Source: Acidimicrobiia bacterium
Lineage (GTDB): Bacteria; Actinomycetota; Acidimicrobiia; IMCC26256; JADLDD01
DNA length: 64,000 nt
Direction of reading: 5' to 3'
Assembly (NCBI GenBank): GCA_020846855.1
Contig: JADLDD010000013.1
Coordinates: 1,530-65,529 of the forward strand
Shown: piece by piece, positions 11,560-43,364 of the stretch
Layout of the letters: every line of letters starts with the position of its first letter
Position numbering within the stretch: position 1 is the first letter of the stretch
The notes under the pieces: generated by a model
Database searches by the model: none
Seen by the model: only the letters and a program-made list of their open reading frames with translations
Told to the model about the DNA's origin: nothing
Position numbers and translations under genes: made by a program

Positions 11560-11635
11560 GCGGACGTGGCTCAGTTGGTAGAGCATCACCTTGCCAAGGT
11601 GAGGGTCGCGGGTTCGAGTCCCGTCGTCCGCTCCA
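11560..11635 (+). tRNA. tRNA-Gly (GCC)
   Basis: GCGGACG/CGTCCGC acceptor stem, GCTC/GAGC D-arm, TCACC-TTGCCAA-GGTGA anticodon arm, GGTTCGAGTCC T-loop, encoded CCA. Confidence 0.97.
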
Positions 11636-32796: not shown

Positions 32797-32868
32797 GGGC
32801 GGTTAGCTCAGGGGTAGAGCACTTCCTTGACGCGGAAGGGGTCAGAGGTTCGAATCCTCTACCGCCCA
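32797..32868 (+). tRNA. tRNA-Val (GAC)
   Basis: GGGCGGT/ACCGCCC acceptor stem, CTTCC-TTGACGC-GGAAG anticodon arm, GGTTCGAATCC; CCA not encoded; -10 TACGAT at 32779-32784. Confidence 0.95.
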
Positions 32869-32870
32869 CC

Positions 32871-37639: not shown

Positions 37640-38317
37640 TCAGTGGTGGTGGCGGGGGAGGAAGGCCCGTTCCCCGTACCGGTCGAGGTGCACGACCTCC
37701 TCCACCGGGCGCCGGGTGGTCGGGCCGTGGTGCCCTCGGGGCCAACCGATCGGGATGACCGCGCAGGGCGTGACGTCGGCGGGCAGGCCCAGCGTGCGCC
37801 GGGCGAGGCCCGTCGACCACAGCGGCATCGTGGTGAGGGTGGCACCCAGGCCGGCCGCCCGGGCCGCGAGGAGCAGGTTCTGGACCGCGGGGAAGATCGA
37901 GCCGTAGTACGAGGCCGCGCCCACGCGGACCAGGCGCGACAGGCGCATGCCCCGCAGGCAGGCGACGATCACCACCGGCGTCTCCTCGAAGTGGTCGGCC
38001 TGCCACTGGATGGCGTCGATCACGCCCTCCATGCGCCAGTCGCTGCGGACCTTGCGGCGGGCGATCCGCTTCGCCACCGACCACGCCTGTCGGTTGAGGC
38101 GGGCGAGCTGGTGCTTCACGGCCGGGTCGCGCACCACGATGAAGTCCCAGTTCTGGTGGTTCTCGGCCGACGGCGCCCGCGTCGCCAGGCGGAGCAGCTC
38201 CAGCACGAGGTCGTCGTCGACCGGATCGGCGAGCAGCCGGCGGATCGCGCGCTGGGTGGTCATGGCCTCGGCCAGCGGCATCTTCCAGGGCCCGTCGGGC
38301 TCCTCGGTGGGTGTCAT
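37640..38317 (-). CDS. Nitroreductase family protein, 225 aa
   Basis: TQRAIRR, APSAENHQNWDFIVV, AVQNLLLAARAAGLG, IPIGWP. Confidence 0.92.
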   Translation of the reverse strand: MTPTEEPDGPWKMPLAEAMTTQRAIRRLLADPVDDDLVLELLRLATRAPSAENHQNWDFIVVRDPAVKHQLARLNRQAWSVAKRIARRKVRSDWRMEGVIDAIQWQADHFEETPVVIVACLRGMRLSRLVRVGAASYYGSIFPAVQNLLLAARAAGLGATLTTMPLWSTGLARRTLGLPADVTPCAVIPIGWPRGHHGPTTRRPVEEVVHLDRYGERAFLPRHHH

Positions 38318-38419: not shown

Positions 38420-38493
38420 GGGCGATTGGCTCAGATGGTTAGAGCGCTGCCTTCACACGGCAGAGGTCGGGGGTTCGAGTCCCTCATCGCCCA
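38420..38493 (+). tRNA. tRNA-Val (CAC)
   Basis: GGGCGAT/ATCGCCC acceptor stem, CTGCC-TTCACAC-GGCAG anticodon arm, GGTTCGAGTCC; CCA not encoded; -10 TATCAT at 38404-38409. Confidence 0.95.
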
Positions 38494-38500
38494 CCCCGAT

Positions 38501-38616
38501 CCCGAGCATGTTGCGATCGGACCCCCTGTGGTGTGGTCGAACGCAACATGCTGGAGCACCCGCCCGAGCATGTTGCGATCGGACCCCCTGTGGTGTGGTC
38601 GAACGCAACATGCTGG
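38501..38616. repeat. Two identical 54-bp palindromic units (REP/MIRU-like), period 62 bp
   Basis: CCCGAGCATGTTGCGATCGGACCCCCTGTGGTGTGGTCGAACGCAACATGCTGG at 38501-38554 and 38563-38616; internal 11-bp inverted repeat AGCATGTTGCG/CGCAACATGCT. Confidence 0.92.
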
Positions 38617-38641
38617 GGGGCACGCCGTAGCATCTTGCGGC

Positions 38642-39019
38642 GTGGTCGACGTCCGCCGGGTCGCGCGCAACGTGGAGCGGTCGGTCCTCGGCGTGCTTCT
38701 CGTCGTGGTGGCCGTCTTCTGGATGCACGGCGTCGGATCCCCGGGCAGTCACCTGGTGAGCCTGCCGTCGGGCGCCCACGGGGCGGCGGCCGTACCCCAG
38801 GCGCACGACACGAGGTCCCATCCCGCCCGGACGGCGGGCCACGACGCCCACACCGACGGGCCCGTCACCACGATGCCCTGCGCGTTCGCGGTGGTCGGCA
38901 CCCCGGATCCCGCCAGTCGCCCGGCCGGACCGTCGGGCCGGGTCGTCGCCTGTGGCGATCGCATGCCGGCGCCGCTCCGTGAGGCACCCGAGCCTCCCGT
39001 GCCACGCCGTTCTCTCTGA
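38642..39019 (+). CDS. Exported His-rich small protein / putative copper-responsive leader peptide (DUF6153/CutF-like), about 125 aa
   Basis: GTG 38642 lies 8 nt after -10 TAGCAT; hydrophobic segment ending WMHG; several His; MPC; Pro-rich C-terminus EAPEPPVPRRSL; directly upstream of the cupredoxin. Confidence 0.65.
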   Translation: MVDVRRVARNVERSVLGVLLVVVAVFWMHGVGSPGSHLVSLPSGAHGAAAVPQAHDTRSHPARTAGHDAHTDGPVTTMPCAFAVVGTPDPASRPAGPSGRVVACGDRMPAPLREAPEPPVPRRSL

Positions 39020-39057
39020 CCCCTGACCACGGATCACGAGAGAACAGGAGAACATTC

Positions 39058-39531
39058 ATGGCGATCAAGCACGCGCGCGCGGCTCTGGTCGGGGTGTTGG
39101 CCCTGTCCGTCGCGGGTTGCGCGACCGACGGGAGCGACCGGACCGAGCGCGGCGCCACCAGGACGGTCGAGGTGGTGATGAGGGACAACACGTTCCGGCC
39201 CGACCGGATCGACGTCCGGCGAGGAGAGGAGGTCACCTTCCGCTTCGTGAACACCGGCCGGCTCGTCCACGAGGCGTTCCTGGGCGACTCGCAGGCTCAG
39301 GAGCAGCACGCCGCCGAGATGGCGGAGGGCGACGACCACGGGGGTGCCTCGCCCGACGGCCATGCCGGACACCTGACGGGCCAGGAGACGGAGCAAGAGA
39401 TGGTCACCGTCCGTCCCGGCGAGGAGGCCACGTTGTCCCGGCGCTTCGACGAGGCGGGGACCGTGATCATCGGGTGCCATCAACCCGGGCACTGGGAGGC
39501 CGGCATGAGGGCCACCGTCGAGGTGAGCTGA
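39058..39531 (+). CDS. Cupredoxin (plastocyanin/azurin, CopI-like) lipoprotein, 157 aa
   Basis: Lipobox VAGC; type-1 Cu ligands VHEAF and GCHQPGHWEAGM; His/Met-rich insertion; AGGAG RBS. Confidence 0.9.
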   Translation: MAIKHARAALVGVLALSVAGCATDGSDRTERGATRTVEVVMRDNTFRPDRIDVRRGEEVTFRFVNTGRLVHEAFLGDSQAQEQHAAEMAEGDDHGGASPDGHAGHLTGQETEQEMVTVRPGEEATLSRRFDEAGTVIIGCHQPGHWEAGMRATVEVS

Positions 39532-39557
39532 GCCCCGGGGCGCTCCCCGGTAGCCGG

Positions 39558-39588
39558 CGGAGGGGGCCTCGGGCCGAGGCCCCCTCCG
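39558..39588. terminator. 14-bp perfect hairpin between convergent genes
   Basis: CGGAGGGGGCCTCG-GGC-CGAGGCCCCCTCCG. Confidence 0.7.
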
Positions 39589-41259
39589 TCAGGCGTCGTC
39601 GGTGAGGTAGGTGGCGGTGTAGCGCTCCATCTCGACGGTGGGCTTCCACCAGCGCTCCACGCCCATGTCGTCGGCGATGCGGCCGGCGGCCAGGTAGCCG
39701 GGGCCGCCGATGACCAGACCGCCGGGGTAGGTGGAGGCGCCGCACACGTAGAGGCCGTCGATCGGCGTCGCGCTGCTGGAGCAGTCCTGGCTGGGCCGGA
39801 AGCAGCCGAGCTGGAGCGGGTTGTAGTCGCCGTGCTTGATCGAGCCGCGCCGCATGTTGGGCAGGCGGATCTCGATGTCCTCGGGGGTCTCCTGGGCCGT
39901 CATCACGATGTTGTCGCCGGCCATGTTGGGGGCCACCTGGCGCCACTTGGCGAGCATGGCCTCCGCCACCTCCGGGCCGCGGCGCTCCCAGCCGCCCTCG
40001 ATGTCGTAGGGGGCGTGCGACTGGAAGAACGACACCTGCCGGCCCGGGTAGCGGCTCAGGTGGGGGTCGAAGATCGTCTGGCAGGTGGTGTGGCCGCCCA
40101 TGGCGTCGAGGTCGAGCCGGCCCGCGGCCACGTTGCGCCAGTGCTCGATCACCTGGTCGGTGCCCTCGAAGCCGACGATGGTCATGAACGACTCGTCGAC
40201 GCCCGTCTCGCGGCTCACGTGGCGGGGCGCCTCCTCGGAGGCCACGTGGAGCGTGGTGTAGCTCCACTTGTCCCACTCCCAGCGGTCGACCGCCTCCTTG
40301 AGCTCGCCGGGCAGGTTCTCGGCGCCGACGAGGTCGGAGAAGGTGGTCTGGGGGTCGAGGCTGGAGGCGACCGTCTTGGCGTGGAGGGTGCGGCCCTCCC
40401 ACAGCTCCACCGCGGTGACGGCGCCGTCCTCGACGACGATGTTGTTCACCTGGGAGGAGTCGAGGATCGTCCCGCCGTTCTTGACGAACTCGCGCGCCAG
40501 CCCGGAGGCCAGCTTGTGCGACCCGCCCTGGCAGTAGCACTTGTTCATGGCCCGGTCGAGCAGGAGCGGCACGAAGAAGCCGACGCCCGTCTCCTCGGGG
40601 TCGAGGCCCCACATGCAGGTCACGTAGAGGAGCAGGGCGCGGATGCGGTCGTCGGTGAAGTGCTCGCTGATGATGTCGAGGGGGCTGCGCTCGCTGAGCT
40701 CGAGCATCTCCTCGCCGAGCTCGGTGCGGCCCATCGCCTCGATGATGTCGAGCGGGGCTAGGGGCGGGATGTAGGTGGCGGGGGCGACGATCTCCCGGGC
40801 GATCTTGCGCCACTTGCGCATGACCCGGCCGAAGTTCACCGCGTCGGGCTTGCTGATGCGGTGCCACGAGTCGACGGTGTCCTCGATCATGCGGGTGAGG
40901 AGGATCGACTGCCCGTCGGGGAAGACCATCGCGGTCTGGTGGTTGGGCTTGATCCACACCGTGCCGTGGCGCTCCAGGTCGAAGTCGCGCAGCACCGGCA
41001 TGAAGTCGACCATCATGTGGTAGACGGCGTGGATGTTGGTGTAGTAGCCGGGGAAGAGGATCTCCTCGGTGGCGAGGCCCCCGCCGATCTCGTAGCGGCG
41101 CTCCACCAGCACCACCTTCAGCCCGGCCTTGGCCAGGTAGTTGGCAGTGATGAGACCGTTCGGCCCCGCGCCGATCACCACGACGTCCCACTCGCTCTCG
41201 GAGGGGAACTCCGAGAAGAAGCTCTGCGGGTGGGGCTGGCCGACCAGTTCCTTGACCAT
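39589..41259 (-). CDS. Phytoene-desaturase-like (COG1233) FAD oxidoreductase, 556 aa
   Basis: [46 protein letters not shown]. Confidence 0.9.
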
Positions 41260-41280
41260 CTCTGCTCCTCGCTCTCCGGG

Positions 41281-42996
41281 TCAGGACCGGTGGGCCGACC
41301 GCTTGCCGGGCTCGGGCACGTACCAGGGCGACGCGTACCACCAGTCGCCGGGGTCCGCGACCTCGTCCTCGATGAGCATGTGCATCAGGTTGTAACCGAC
41401 GGCCATCAGGCACAGGCCGCCGGGGTGCGCGGCCGACTGGTGGGCGAGGTAGAGGCCCTCGATCCCCGGCACCCGGTAGCGGGCCAGCTCGGGCAGCGGG
41501 CGCTCGTTCCACCACTGGTCGCGGTCGCAGCGGATCCCGTACCACGAGCCGCCGAGCATCCCGGTGTTGCGCAGCTCCTGCTCGTAGGGCGAGTCGCTGA
41601 TGATCCGCACCAGGTTGTCGTCGTCGAGGTTCTCGATGATGCAGCCCAGGCTGGCCCGCATGAACTCGTCCCAGGTCTTCTTGTCGCCGGCCCGGTCCAT
41701 GGCGTCCATGCCGTCGACGTTGTACTGAGGCGTCGGGACCATCATCCAAAGCGGGCCGTTGATGTGGCGACCGGGCCGGGTCGACTGCGGGTTGGTCTCG
41801 TCGTAGAGCGACGCCGCGACCATCCCCCACATCGCCTCGGACGGGTCGAGGGTGAGGTTGGCCTGGCGGCCGAGGACGTTCTCGACGTTCTTGAAGTAGA
41901 TCTCCCGGGAACCCATGTTGAAGAACGCCCCGGTGAACGCGTCCTTGGGCGGCGGGAGCCGGTACTTCTCGCGGTAGCGGAACTCCTCCTTGGTGAGGTA
42001 GTGGCTCATGTAGAGGCTGCCGCCCTTGATGCTCAGGTCGTTGATGCGCTGGAGGAACCCGGCGTCGAGGTGGCGGGGGCCGATCAGGTCGTTGAACGTG
42101 GGCTTGATGTGGCAGGCGCTGATGACGGCCTTGCGGGCCCAGATCGTCTTCGCGGCCCAGGTGGCGTCGTCGCGCAGGCGCACGCCCTGGGCCCGCCCGT
42201 TGCCGATGATGATCTCCTCCACGGGGGAGCAGGTCCGGAACGTGGCACCGTTCGCGACCGCGCAGCGGTAGAGGGCGTGGAAGTAGCCGTGCATGTTGCC
42301 GCGGGCCGCGACGGGCTTGGCGATGGCCGGTGGCATCACCGTCGCCGAGCTGCACATGGCGGGGATGGCCACGCCCTCCATGTGGCCGTGGGCGCCGGAG
42401 CTGAGCGCGATGTAGGCCTGGGTGACCTTGAAGGGCTCCGTGTCGAGGTACTCGTCCATGAGGTCGAACATGGTGATCTCGAGCAGCTCGCGGGTCCACA
42501 TGTCGGGCTGGTACTTCTTGTAGACCTGCATGAACGGGATGTTGTGCTCGTCGAGCTCGGTCCCGTAGGGGTGCGGCGGGCACCAGAAGGTCGCCCGCAT
42601 GAGGTCGCGGAACGCGTCGTTCCCGGCCAGCATGAGGGTCATCTTCGCCCAGCCCATCATGTCGGCCTCGGTGACCTTGGAGAGGCCGTCGCCGGTGAAG
42701 ATGTAGCGGTCGGTGTCGAGCTCGACGGGGACGTTGGGGTTCCAGTCCATGCGGAACCCGTAGCGCCACAGCTCGAGCTGCTCCCACCCGGGGGCCGAGC
42801 CGCCGTAGTTGGCGATGGCGTGGGGCTGGATGCGGATCCCGGCGATCGGCTCGACCGTCTCCTGGGCGCCGCCGCTCTCGGGCCGGTCCTCGAGCACCAG
42901 GACGCTCAGGCCCGACTTGGCCAGGTAGGCCGCGGTCGTGGTGCCGTTGTGCCCGGCGCCGATGATCACGACGTCGTAGGTCTCTTCGGTGGCCAC
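41281..42996 (-). CDS. Phytoene-desaturase-like (COG1233) FAD oxidoreductase, 571 aa
   Basis: GTG 42996 after GGAGGGG; YDVVIIGAGHNG, EDRPESGGA, GLYLAHQSAAHPGG. Confidence 0.9.
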   Translation of the reverse strand: MATEETYDVVIIGAGHNGTTTAAYLAKSGLSVLVLEDRPESGGAQETVEPIAGIRIQPHAIANYGGSAPGWEQLELWRYGFRMDWNPNVPVELDTDRYIFTGDGLSKVTEADMMGWAKMTLMLAGNDAFRDLMRATFWCPPHPYGTELDEHNIPFMQVYKKYQPDMWTRELLEITMFDLMDEYLDTEPFKVTQAYIALSSGAHGHMEGVAIPAMCSSATVMPPAIAKPVAARGNMHGYFHALYRCAVANGATFRTCSPVEEIIIGNGRAQGVRLRDDATWAAKTIWARKAVISACHIKPTFNDLIGPRHLDAGFLQRINDLSIKGGSLYMSHYLTKEEFRYREKYRLPPPKDAFTGAFFNMGSREIYFKNVENVLGRQANLTLDPSEAMWGMVAASLYDETNPQSTRPGRHINGPLWMMVPTPQYNVDGMDAMDRAGDKKTWDEFMRASLGCIIENLDDDNLVRIISDSPYEQELRNTGMLGGSWYGIRCDRDQWWNERPLPELARYRVPGIEGLYLAHQSAAHPGGLCLMAVGYNLMHMLIEDEVADPGDWWYASPWYVPEPGKRSAHRS

Positions 42997-43082
42997 GGGA
43001 CCCCCTCCGGTTCGCTCCCCAGCTCCGCCCGTGCCCGGGTGGCGGCGCCCGGCGGCGGGCGCGCGGCGGCGCGGTCGGCGGG

Positions 43083-43111
43083 ATCCTAAGACCGAGAAAG
43101 CTTTCGCGCAA
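43083..43111 (-). promoter_or_regulatory. Sigma70-type promoter of the oxidoreductase pair with a palindromic operator
   Basis: Minus strand TTGCGC (43111-43106)-N17-TAGGAT (43088-43083); palindrome GAAAGCTTTC at 43096-43105 within CGAGAAAGCTTTCGCG. Confidence 0.65.
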
Positions 43112-43364
43112 GTAACCTCCGGGCGCGGTGCCTCACGGCGGGTCGCGCCGGTCGACCGGCCGGCCCGTGCGCGGGCGGCGACGGCCGCGGGCCCGGCGGG
43201 CGCGTCGCGTTGAGGGCCTCCGGGGGCTGCGCGAGAATGGACGGCGGGCCGGGCGCTCCCCGACCGGACGCCCGTCCCCAGGAACCCCCCTACGAACACG
43301 ACCACGGAAATGGCCGCTCCCTGGCTCGACACCAGGGCCTGAGCAGACAGGCCGCGGACCCGGA

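What the first reader, a model, noticed from the sequence alone, without database searches (positions are those of the whole stretch)
38628..39531. Putative copper-sensing ribosome-stalling leader controlling a cupredoxin
Seen: an apparently leaderless 125-aa ORF with an export-like hydrophobic segment ending WMHG, a His-rich middle, MPC and a Pro-rich end (APEPPVPRRSL). Its last codons GTTCTCTC (39009-39016) are perfectly complementary to GAGAGAAC (39038-39045). They can alternatively pair with GGAGAAC (39047-39053; 7 bp, one G-U), which covers the AGGAG SD of the cupredoxin. Established: proteobacterial CutF and CruR (DUF2946) are exported upstream ORFs with metal-binding residues and C-terminal Pro motifs that gate downstream copper genes through stalling and mRNA structure. 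Inference: an actinobacterial (DUF6153-like) analogue using His/Met/Cys instead of CxxC.
Basis: partly seen in the sequence, partly recalled or inferred. Interest (0 to 1): 0.7.

Follow-up and report, generated by a model that had tools for sequence, protein, structure and literature searches.

The report
Copper leader with new stalling motif
A small gene with a membrane-anchor-like start sits just before a copper-protein gene and belongs to an unnamed family that ends in one conserved proline-rich motif at a fixed distance from a cysteine; it likely pauses the ribosome so that the next gene's binding site opens, probably in response to copper, which would be a known kind of switch with a different stalling motif.

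Summary
The ORF (38642-39019) and the 8-bp complementarity are real. The alternative pairing over the SD has about zero predicted weight. The ORF belongs to an unnamed family: 86 of 97 representatives end in P[ED]PPxP[RK], mostly PEPPVPR, each with a Cys 36-39 residues upstream. The motif is conserved as protein. All 17 loci with DNA lie 35-51 nt before a CopI-like cupredoxin gene; 13 were found through the cupredoxin, 3 through the leader. Promoter, leader, cupredoxin and terminator are missing together (967 bp) from a close lineage in three studies. Best reading: a CutF-type stalling leader that opens a hairpin at the cupredoxin ribosome site when copper is high (0.55). Stalling and copper response are untested, and the RNA evidence is mixed. 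It lacks CxxC and RAPP and misses the DUF2946 and DUF6153 cut-offs. RAPP-type DUF6153 leaders are already in the source data of PMC12992588; PEPPVPR was not found in print. This scan noted similar leaders on other DNA. New variant of a known kind; interest 0.5.

The parts
38628..38633 (+). Likely -10 element (TAGCAT) of a leaderless promoter, 8 nt before the GTG
   Evidence: A [TC]ANNNT hexamer lies 7-8 nt before the chosen start in 9 of 10 family loci with a set start (starts picked by me among several). TANNNT at -7 to -12 and leaderless mRNAs are common in M. tuberculosis (PMC3898074, passages).
38642..39019 (+). Leader ORF, 125 aa: N-terminal helix/anchor, Met28-His29, His-rich linker, Cys80, C-terminal PEPPVPR
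   Evidence: AlphaFold2 gives one helix 4-30 and no other structure, pTM 0.31.
38681..38728 (+). Hydrophobic export or anchor segment (residues 14-29) ending in conserved Met-His
   Evidence: 13-residue hydropathy 3.1 from residue 14; His29 invariant and Met28 at least 90% in 60 aligned members.
38879..38881 (+). Invariant Cys80, 38 residues before the first Pro of PP
   Evidence: 86 of 86 motif-bearing representatives have a Cys at 36-39; 24 of 24 single-Cys ones at 37-39.
38987..39007 (+). PEPPVPR codons (residues 116-122), candidate arrest motif
   Evidence: First two codon positions fixed and third positions variable in 14 aligned loci.
39007..39048 (+). Hairpin over the leader stop codon, reaching into the first GG of the cupredoxin SD
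39046..39050 (+). Shine-Dalgarno AGGAG, 7 nt before the ATG
   Evidence: Sequence.
39058..39531 (+). CopI-like cupredoxin, likely a lipoprotein (VAGC, Cys21), with type-1 copper ligand pattern His72, Cys140, His145, Met150 and an internal His-rich loop
   Evidence: lipobox and ligand assignment read from the sequence using general knowledge of cupredoxins; no solved relative by sequence.
39553..39594 (.). Strong GC-rich inverted repeat after the cupredoxin, likely a terminator between convergent genes
   Evidence: z -4.8 for 39532-39595; no U tail, so not called by the terminator scan.
38618..39584 (+). 967-bp accessory cassette (promoter, leader, cupredoxin, most of the terminator) absent from a close lineage
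   Evidence: Joint 38617 to 39585 in contigs of runs X7, X13 and X17, three studies.

Best explanation
The 125-aa ORF is likely a ribosome-stalling leader that sets how much of the CopI-like cupredoxin behind it is translated, probably switching it on when copper is high. Shown here: the family architecture (anchor, Met-His, variable His-rich linker, one Cys, 36-39 residues, P[ED]PPVPR, short tail), the constant position before the cupredoxin gene, and a predicted hairpin from the last leader codons to the ribosome-binding site. Inferred steps: (1) a leaderless two-gene mRNA starts at about 38642; (2) the anchor takes the translating ribosome to the Sec translocon, placing Met28/His29 and much of the His linker outside; (3) the ribosome slows at PEPPVPR, where Cys80 is 38-41 residues from the peptidyl-transferase centre, about one exit-tunnel length; (4) copper binding by His/Met/Cys prolongs the pause, as reported for CutF; (5) the paused ribosome covers the 5' arm of the hairpin, lowering the predicted cost of opening the cupredoxin site from 11.7 to 3.7-8.7 kcal/mol. 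The direction (copper turns it on) is inferred from the target being like a copper-tolerance protein.
For: Motif found without using the leader: 13 of 49 loci fetched through the cupredoxin carry it just upstream. Leader-first genome hits with the motif: 3 of 3 precede a CopI-like gene (L083, L089, L092). 78 of 80 and 86 of 97 profile hits carry the motif. Codon pattern shows selection on the peptide. Cys-to-PP distance is 37-39 (SD 0.53) while Cys-to-end is 44-49 (SD 0.99) and His29-to-Cys is 37-69, so the register is tied to the motif more than to the stop codon; a fixed sensor-to-motif spacing matters for CruR (PMC9426467 section 9). CutF ends in PEPEGPPPRL and needs its PPP (bioRxiv 10.1101/2025.02.05.636593 passages); its Cys73 lies 41-43 residues before these prolines (PMC8456105 passages). 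The local fold pairs most of the SD in 12 of 14 loci, with z at or below -2 in 12 of 14, and native codons close the site more than synonymous recodings in 10 of 14 (window 0 of 60). 10 of 12 loci with flanks have a P-type ATPase, HMA or DUF305 gene nearby. The cassette comes and goes as one unit and has no CsoR-like box although the genome's csoR has two, so a transcriptional copper switch is not evident.
Against: No experiment shows stalling or copper response. The motif is neither RAPP/RGPP (0 of 80) nor PPP, the two forms with shown arrest. Profile searches favour sequences that carry the motif, so the 78 of 80 and 86 of 97 are partly circular. RNAalifold finds no consensus pair. The opening energy is not above this GC-rich genome's background (family median 9.8 against 11.1; window rank 25 of 78). 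In the window only 2 of 5 SD bases pair, and after masking by a ribosome the SD stays 30-70% unpaired because weak local helices form. A terminating ribosome opens the site as well (4.7 kcal/mol), so stalling is not needed for coupling. Own 3' strand beats all foreign ones in only 9 of 14 loci, five of them from one subclade. 36 of 49 cupredoxin-seeded loci lack this motif (some are too short upstream), so it is not required for the gene. The window's His count and positions are not conserved beyond His29.
Confidence: 0.55

Rival explanations
1. It is an arrest leader, but the cue is not copper: it monitors Sec export or membrane insertion (SecM/MifM-like force sensing), thiol redox state, or another metal, and matches lipoprotein synthesis to that cue.
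For: One Cys rather than CxxC (1 of 80 with CxxC). 45 of 60 members have a second hydrophobic stretch around the Cys, which could exert pulling force. CutF-like proteins with His-only motifs precede Ni/Co genes (PMC9973294 passages).
Against: Targets are cupredoxins in all 17 loci with DNA, and copper-handling genes flank most. His29 and Cys80 are invariant. The window's own second segment is only weakly hydrophobic (1.5).
Confidence: 0.2
2. The ORF encodes a small copper-binding membrane protein (buffer or chaperone for the cupredoxin); the hairpin only gives constitutive translational coupling when ribosomes terminate.
For: A terminating ribosome opens the site as well as a stalled one. Occlusion is not above background. 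His-rich disordered segments of CopI bind Cu(II) (PMC13308877 abstract).
Against: It does not explain an invariant Pro-rich heptamer 0-8 residues from the end of an unstructured tail, or the fixed Cys-to-motif spacing. Close cupredoxins occur without the leader, e.g. L070 directly behind the ATPase.
Confidence: 0.15
3. It is a copper-sensing arrest leader with the opposite sign (CruR-like): stalling is the default and copper relieves it, so the cupredoxin is made when copper is scarce.
For: At the stall Cys80 would sit at the tunnel exit, like the cytoplasm-sensing CxxC of CruR. The function of this CopI-like lipoprotein is untested.
Against: Neighbours in relatives are P-type ATPases and HMA proteins with CsoR-like boxes, i.e. 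excess-copper genes. CopI is implicated in copper tolerance. The motif resembles CutF more than RAPP.
Confidence: 0.1

Closest known systems
CutF of Rhodobacter capsulatus (cutFOG; PMC8456105, PMC9973294, bioRxiv 10.1101/2025.02.05.636593; passages read)
   Same: About 120 aa, export signal, metal-ligand residues about 40 residues before a C-terminal Pro motif ending P-R, first gene before an exported copper-detoxifying protein, hairpin at the downstream SD.
   Different: No CxxxC; motif PEPPVPR rather than PEPEGPPPRL (no PPP); likely leaderless; Actinomycetota; target is a CopI-like lipoprotein, not a Tat multicopper oxidase; P0001 has no DUF2946 hit.
CruR of Bordetella pertussis (DUF2946, PF11162; PMC9426467 abstract, first part, section 9 and passages)
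   Same: Upstream ORF with export signal and a fixed spacing between a Cys ligand and a C-terminal Pro motif.
   Different: CruR has CxxC and RAPP, a 162-nt spacer and Rho-dependent termination, and copper represses its target. Here the spacer is 35-51 nt and the SD is in a hairpin.
RAPP/RGPP arrest peptides of Streptomyces lividans, esp. SLIV_16130, and DUF6153 (PF19650) upstream ORFs (PMC12992588 sections 13-15; 28 of 321 DUF6153 rows of supplementary file 8 seen)
   Same: Actinobacterial, hydrophobic segment ending MH[GA], His-rich linker, a Cys about 40 residues before the Pro motif, upstream of copper genes. 18 of 60 family members hit DUF6153 at E<=0.01. That SLIV_16130 is a DUF6153 protein is my inference from its Cys/His spacing.
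   Different: No RAPP/RGPP and no 'L..L..LR' tail; the rows seen precede DUF305 (27) or a multicopper oxidase (1); profile comparison with a true DUF6153 leader aligned only the 19 N-terminal columns at 13% probability.
CopI cupredoxin (NCBIfam NF051440, NF047895; PMC13308877 abstract)
   Same: Near full-length match, type-1 ligand pattern and internal His-rich loop.
   Different: 85.8 bits against a cut-off of 280; a likely lipoprotein of a monoderm, not a soluble periplasmic protein.

Membership tests
DUF2946 (CruR/CutF) | Pfam PF11162 above gathering score | tested here: not met
   No hit for P0001; 4 of 60 family members hit at E<=0.01; L079's leader 21.7 bits against 23.7.
DUF2946 (CruR/CutF) | CxxC or CxxxC motif | tested here: not met
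   Absent in P0001; CxxC in 1 and CxxxC in 3 of 80 relatives.
CutF-like proteins (rule set of PMC9973294 section 25) | Under 150 aa, PP within 15 residues of the C-terminus, same-strand neighbour within 1000 nt | tested here: met
   125 aa, PP at 118-119, 38-nt gap.
CutF-like proteins (rule set of PMC9973294 section 25) | Cleavable Sec signal peptide by SignalP | not testable with these tools
   A hydrophobic helix is present; SignalP is not available, so cleavage versus anchor is open.
CutF-like proteins | Stem-loop shielding the downstream SD | tested here: inconclusive
   Most of the SD is paired in 12 of 14 loci but only 2 of 5 bases in the window; not above genome background; no consensus structure.
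CutF/CruR type | Copper-dependent, cis-acting control through ribosome stalling | not testable with these tools
   Needs toeprinting and reporters.
RAPP/RGPP arrest peptides (SecM, ApdA, SLIV_16130 type) | R-[AG]-P-P or close variant near the C-terminus | tested here: not met
   0 of 80.
DUF6153 (PF19650) | Pfam score above 27.7 bits | tested here: not met
   17.4 bits over profile positions 1-106 of 116; 4 of 80 relatives carry a precomputed PF19650 label.
DUF6153 (PF19650) | Hydrophobic segment + MH + His-rich linker + single conserved Cys, upstream of a copper gene | tested here: met
   His29 and Cys80 align as invariant columns with 12 DUF6153-hit leaders of the same class, which all precede cupredoxin-type genes (by inspection; one checked by Pfam).
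CopI (NF051440/NF047895) | NCBIfam cut-off | tested here: not met
   85.8 against 280 and 35.9 against 200 bits; call it CopI-like.

The most novel reading that the evidence does not exclude
P[ED]PPVPR is a third class of metal-gated arrest motif, beside RAPP and PPP, read against a single cysteine held one exit-tunnel length away. Because 19 of 24 other DUF6153-type leaders seen here also lack RAPP/RGPP yet keep their Cys 52-60 residues from the end, the whole actinobacterial MH-His-Cys leader superfamily would be one copper-sensing scaffold with interchangeable stalling ends, largely missed by RAPP-based surveys and able to travel as a self-contained 1-kb copper switch.
Probability: 0.4. Interest if true: 0.7.

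Novelty: new variant of a known kind. Interest (0 to 1): 0.5.

Why it matters
How copper turns a nascent chain into a ribosome brake is still open: the CutF and CruR papers propose opposite effects of copper and differ on EF-P. This family offers a minimal test object: one invariant Cys, one invariant His, a spacing fixed to about one residue, a motif unlike those with shown arrest, and a 967-bp cassette that carries promoter, sensor, hairpin, target and terminator. If true, RAPP-based surveys undercount metal-sensing leaders in Actinomycetota. If false, the invariant heptamer still needs an explanation.

Tried and rejected
Single-sequence search found only the protein itself; relatives came through the cupredoxin. 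The 60 order-level genomes gave 12 cupredoxin matches and none with this leader. RNAalifold on 14 loci gave no pairs, probably because the stem shifts register between subclades; counted against conservation of one fixed structure. The two-register switch was rejected. I considered that TGA 39017 is a premature stop that cut off a DUF6153 tail; rejected because relatives stop 0-8 residues after the motif. The 62-bp tandem repeat before the start is a dispersed palindromic element with copies on more than ten contigs and is not part of the system. Promoter and terminator consensus scans found nothing. Structure prediction was uninformative beyond one helix, so no fold search was run. RNA-library contigs from several studies cover the cassette, one bridging the junction (X4, 38763-39488), and two begin at 38650 and 38654, but others begin in the repeat, all are contigs and I laid no silent control stretch, so transcription and start site are not shown. 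Literature: 'DUF6153' 0 papers, 'PEPPVPR' 0 papers, actinobacterial copper arrest search gave only the three known papers. Supplements: no PPVPR or DUF6153 in the 3 held files of PMC9973294 (8,054 characters; its list of 5,334 CutF-like proteins was not among them); no EPPVPR in 10 files of PMC12992588, one cut and four too large to read, including the Appendix. Those unseen files, and bioRxiv supplements, could list this family. No complex prediction was run because no binding claim is made.

Full report
Observation. The leader ORF runs from GTG 38642 to TGA 39019 and gives 125 aa as described. It is on record as a called gene of the same length and has GC3 0.87. The cupredoxin starts 38 nt later, at 39058, behind AGGAG. 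It passes two Pfam cupredoxin cut-offs and is most like CopI without reaching that model's cut-off. The 8-bp complementarity is real, arose in 65 of 5000 shuffles, and forms with probability 0.85-1.0. The second register over the SD has probability 0.00; the SD is touched instead by an extension of the main stem onto its first GG in two of three folding windows. The host is likely an Acidimicrobiia actinobacterium: relatives carry such names, the genome is 74% GC and holders are mostly sludge and wastewater runs.

Finding the family. The leader alone finds no relative. Searching with the cupredoxin gave 12, 19 and 18 loci. A scan of all these loci found an upstream ORF ending P[ED]PPVPR plus 3-5 residues in 13 of the 49: 12 of the 18 metagenome loci, 1 of the 19 genome loci and 0 of the 12 order-level matches. 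This route did not use the leader, so the motif's recurrence is not circular. A profile of 9 leaders then gave 80 hits in the 90% collection, 78 with P[ED]PPVPR and none with RAPP/RGPP, and 97 representatives at 50% identity, 86 with P[ED]PPxP[RK]; these counts are partly circular. Genome searches with the profiles (264, 401 and 401 genomes) gave 4, 12 and 10 other genomes with a match, of which three loci carry the motif (L083, L089, L092), and all three precede a CopI-like gene. The family is therefore sparse in the genomes searched; motif-bearing loci came only from the host's class, and none from the wider phylum sample.

Anatomy. In 60 aligned members His29, Cys80 and P116, P118, P119, V120, P121 are invariant at 23% mean column identity. 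In 14 DNA loci the motif codons keep their first two positions and vary at the third, with an AGA Arg codon as well, so selection acts on the peptide. Counted without an alignment, all 86 motif-bearing representatives have a Cys 36-39 residues before the PP. Among 83 single-Cys proteins, near-duplicates included, that distance is 37-39 (SD 0.53) while the distance to the C-terminus is 44-49 (SD 0.99), and the His29-to-Cys linker spans 37-69 residues. The variable linker shows that the profile tolerates length change, so the fixed spacing is informative. AlphaFold2 sees one helix (4-30) and nothing else. A TANNNT-like hexamer lies 7-8 nt before the start in 9 of 10 loci with a set start (starts chosen by me), which fits leaderless transcription as described in PMC3898074 (passages).

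RNA. For: the local fold from the motif to the start codon pairs most of the SD in 12 of 14 loci with z at or below -2 in 12 of 14. Native codons close the site more than synonymous recodings in 10 of 14 loci (at most 4 of 60 recodings reach the native value; window 11.7 against 6.4 +/- 1.8 kcal/mol, 0 of 60). Masking the codons under a ribosome at P118-R122 lowers the window's opening energy to 3.7-8.7. Against: RNAalifold finds no shared pairs; opening energies do not exceed those of 78 ordinary genes of this genome (median 9.8 against 11.1; window rank 25), though they exceed those of 13 leaderless-context cupredoxins (median 7.5; kin not independent); L081 has no SD pairing; a terminating ribosome opens the site too (4.7). 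The window is one of the weaker cases for SD occlusion.

Context. 10 of 12 family loci with flanks have a P-type ATPase, HMA or DUF305 gene nearby: 7 by Pfam and 3 by the same ATPase C-terminal sequence; L081 and L089 have none. The window has no other copper gene beside it. Contigs from three studies join 38617 to 39585 with 5 other letters, i.e. a lineage about 97% identical in the flanks lacks exactly the 967 bp holding the -10 element, leader, cupredoxin and most of the downstream hairpin; run X17 holds both forms. The cassette has only 24 nt before the start codon and no CsoR-like box, while the genome's csoR-like gene has two. The genome encodes EF-P and a P-type ATPase below the copper-model cut-off.

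Mechanism. The most likely reading is a CutF-type switch (0.55): export-coupled translation, a pause at PEPPVPR with Cys80 near the tunnel exit, copper prolonging the pause, and the paused ribosome freeing the cupredoxin site. The geometry matches known leaders: CutF has Cys73 and PPP at 114-116 (PMC8456105 and bioRxiv 10.1101/2025.02.05.636593, passages); SLIV_16130 has Cys66 and Arg105 (PMC12992588 section 14 and supplement rows); CruR needs its spacing kept within a few residues (PMC9426467 section 9). Tunnel length and topology are general knowledge, recalled. Rivals: another cue (0.2), a plain copper-binding protein with constitutive coupling (0.15), opposite sign (0.1).

Comparison and novelty. 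It works like CutF by architecture but is not a DUF2946 member (no hit, no CxxC), not a RAPP peptide, and below the DUF6153 cut-off; it is best called a DUF6153-related subfamily. Actinobacterial RAPP leaders before copper genes, with arrest shown in vitro and in vivo, are in print (PMC12992588 sections 13-15), and its source data name DUF6153 321 times, although no main text searched does. PEPPVPR was not found in main texts or in the supplements I could read; the CutF-like list and the Appendix were not readable. Earlier notes of this scan describe similar actinobacterial leaders and CutF-type leaders before copI on other DNA (unchecked), and none holds this motif word or this sequence. Verdict: real, probably regulatory, a new variant of a known kind; interest 0.5.

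Noticed in passing
window 38420-38495 (+): tRNA-Val(CAC) just upstream of the repeat and cassette; the cassette is inserted 122 nt beyond it, so not at a classical tRNA attachment site.
   Followed up: partly
window 38501-38617: 62-bp palindromic repeat in tandem, with related copies, often paired, on more than ten contigs of the genome; a REP-like element.
   Followed up: partly
L015-L025, L027, L084, L085, L091, L095, L099-L105, L108: 24 DUF6153-type leaders before cupredoxin-, DUF305- or multicopper-oxidase-like genes (targets judged by eye); only 5 have RAPP/RGPP, 7 have no PP at all, yet all keep a Cys 52-60 residues from the end and an L..LR/SRT-type tail.
   Followed up: partly
L056, L057, L059 (alphaproteobacteria), upstream of the CopI match at 2001: Small Cys/His ORFs ending DPPPPR[AL] directly before CopI-like genes: CutF-type leaders on the same target family.
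   Followed up: no
L070 versus L064-L068: Same ATPase-to-cupredoxin order with and without the leader in between, so the leader is gained or lost as a module.
   Followed up: partly
L045:1500-1904: The leader is split over frames and the cupredoxin start is also shifted, likely assembly indels; motif and hairpin are intact.
   Followed up: no
L110:1864-1910: Two TACC-N-GGTA inverted boxes directly upstream of the genome's csoR-like gene; the same box lies near copper genes in six relative loci but not in the window's cassette. The pattern was recalled, not taken from a call.
   Followed up: partly
Atlas result for P0001: A cluster named lipoprotein LpqS (PF26327) scores 0.92 by features; lpqS appears with RicR and copper in papers (search listing only). 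It may belong to the same leader superfamily; not tested.
   Followed up: no
window 39589-43332 (-): Two tandem FAD-dependent oxidoreductase-like ORFs converge on the cupredoxin; the first was scanned, the second only seen. A nitroreductase gene lies at 37640-38317 (-).
   Followed up: no
window 11560-11635 and 32797-32870: tRNA-Gly(GCC) and a second tRNA-Val(GAC).
   Followed up: no
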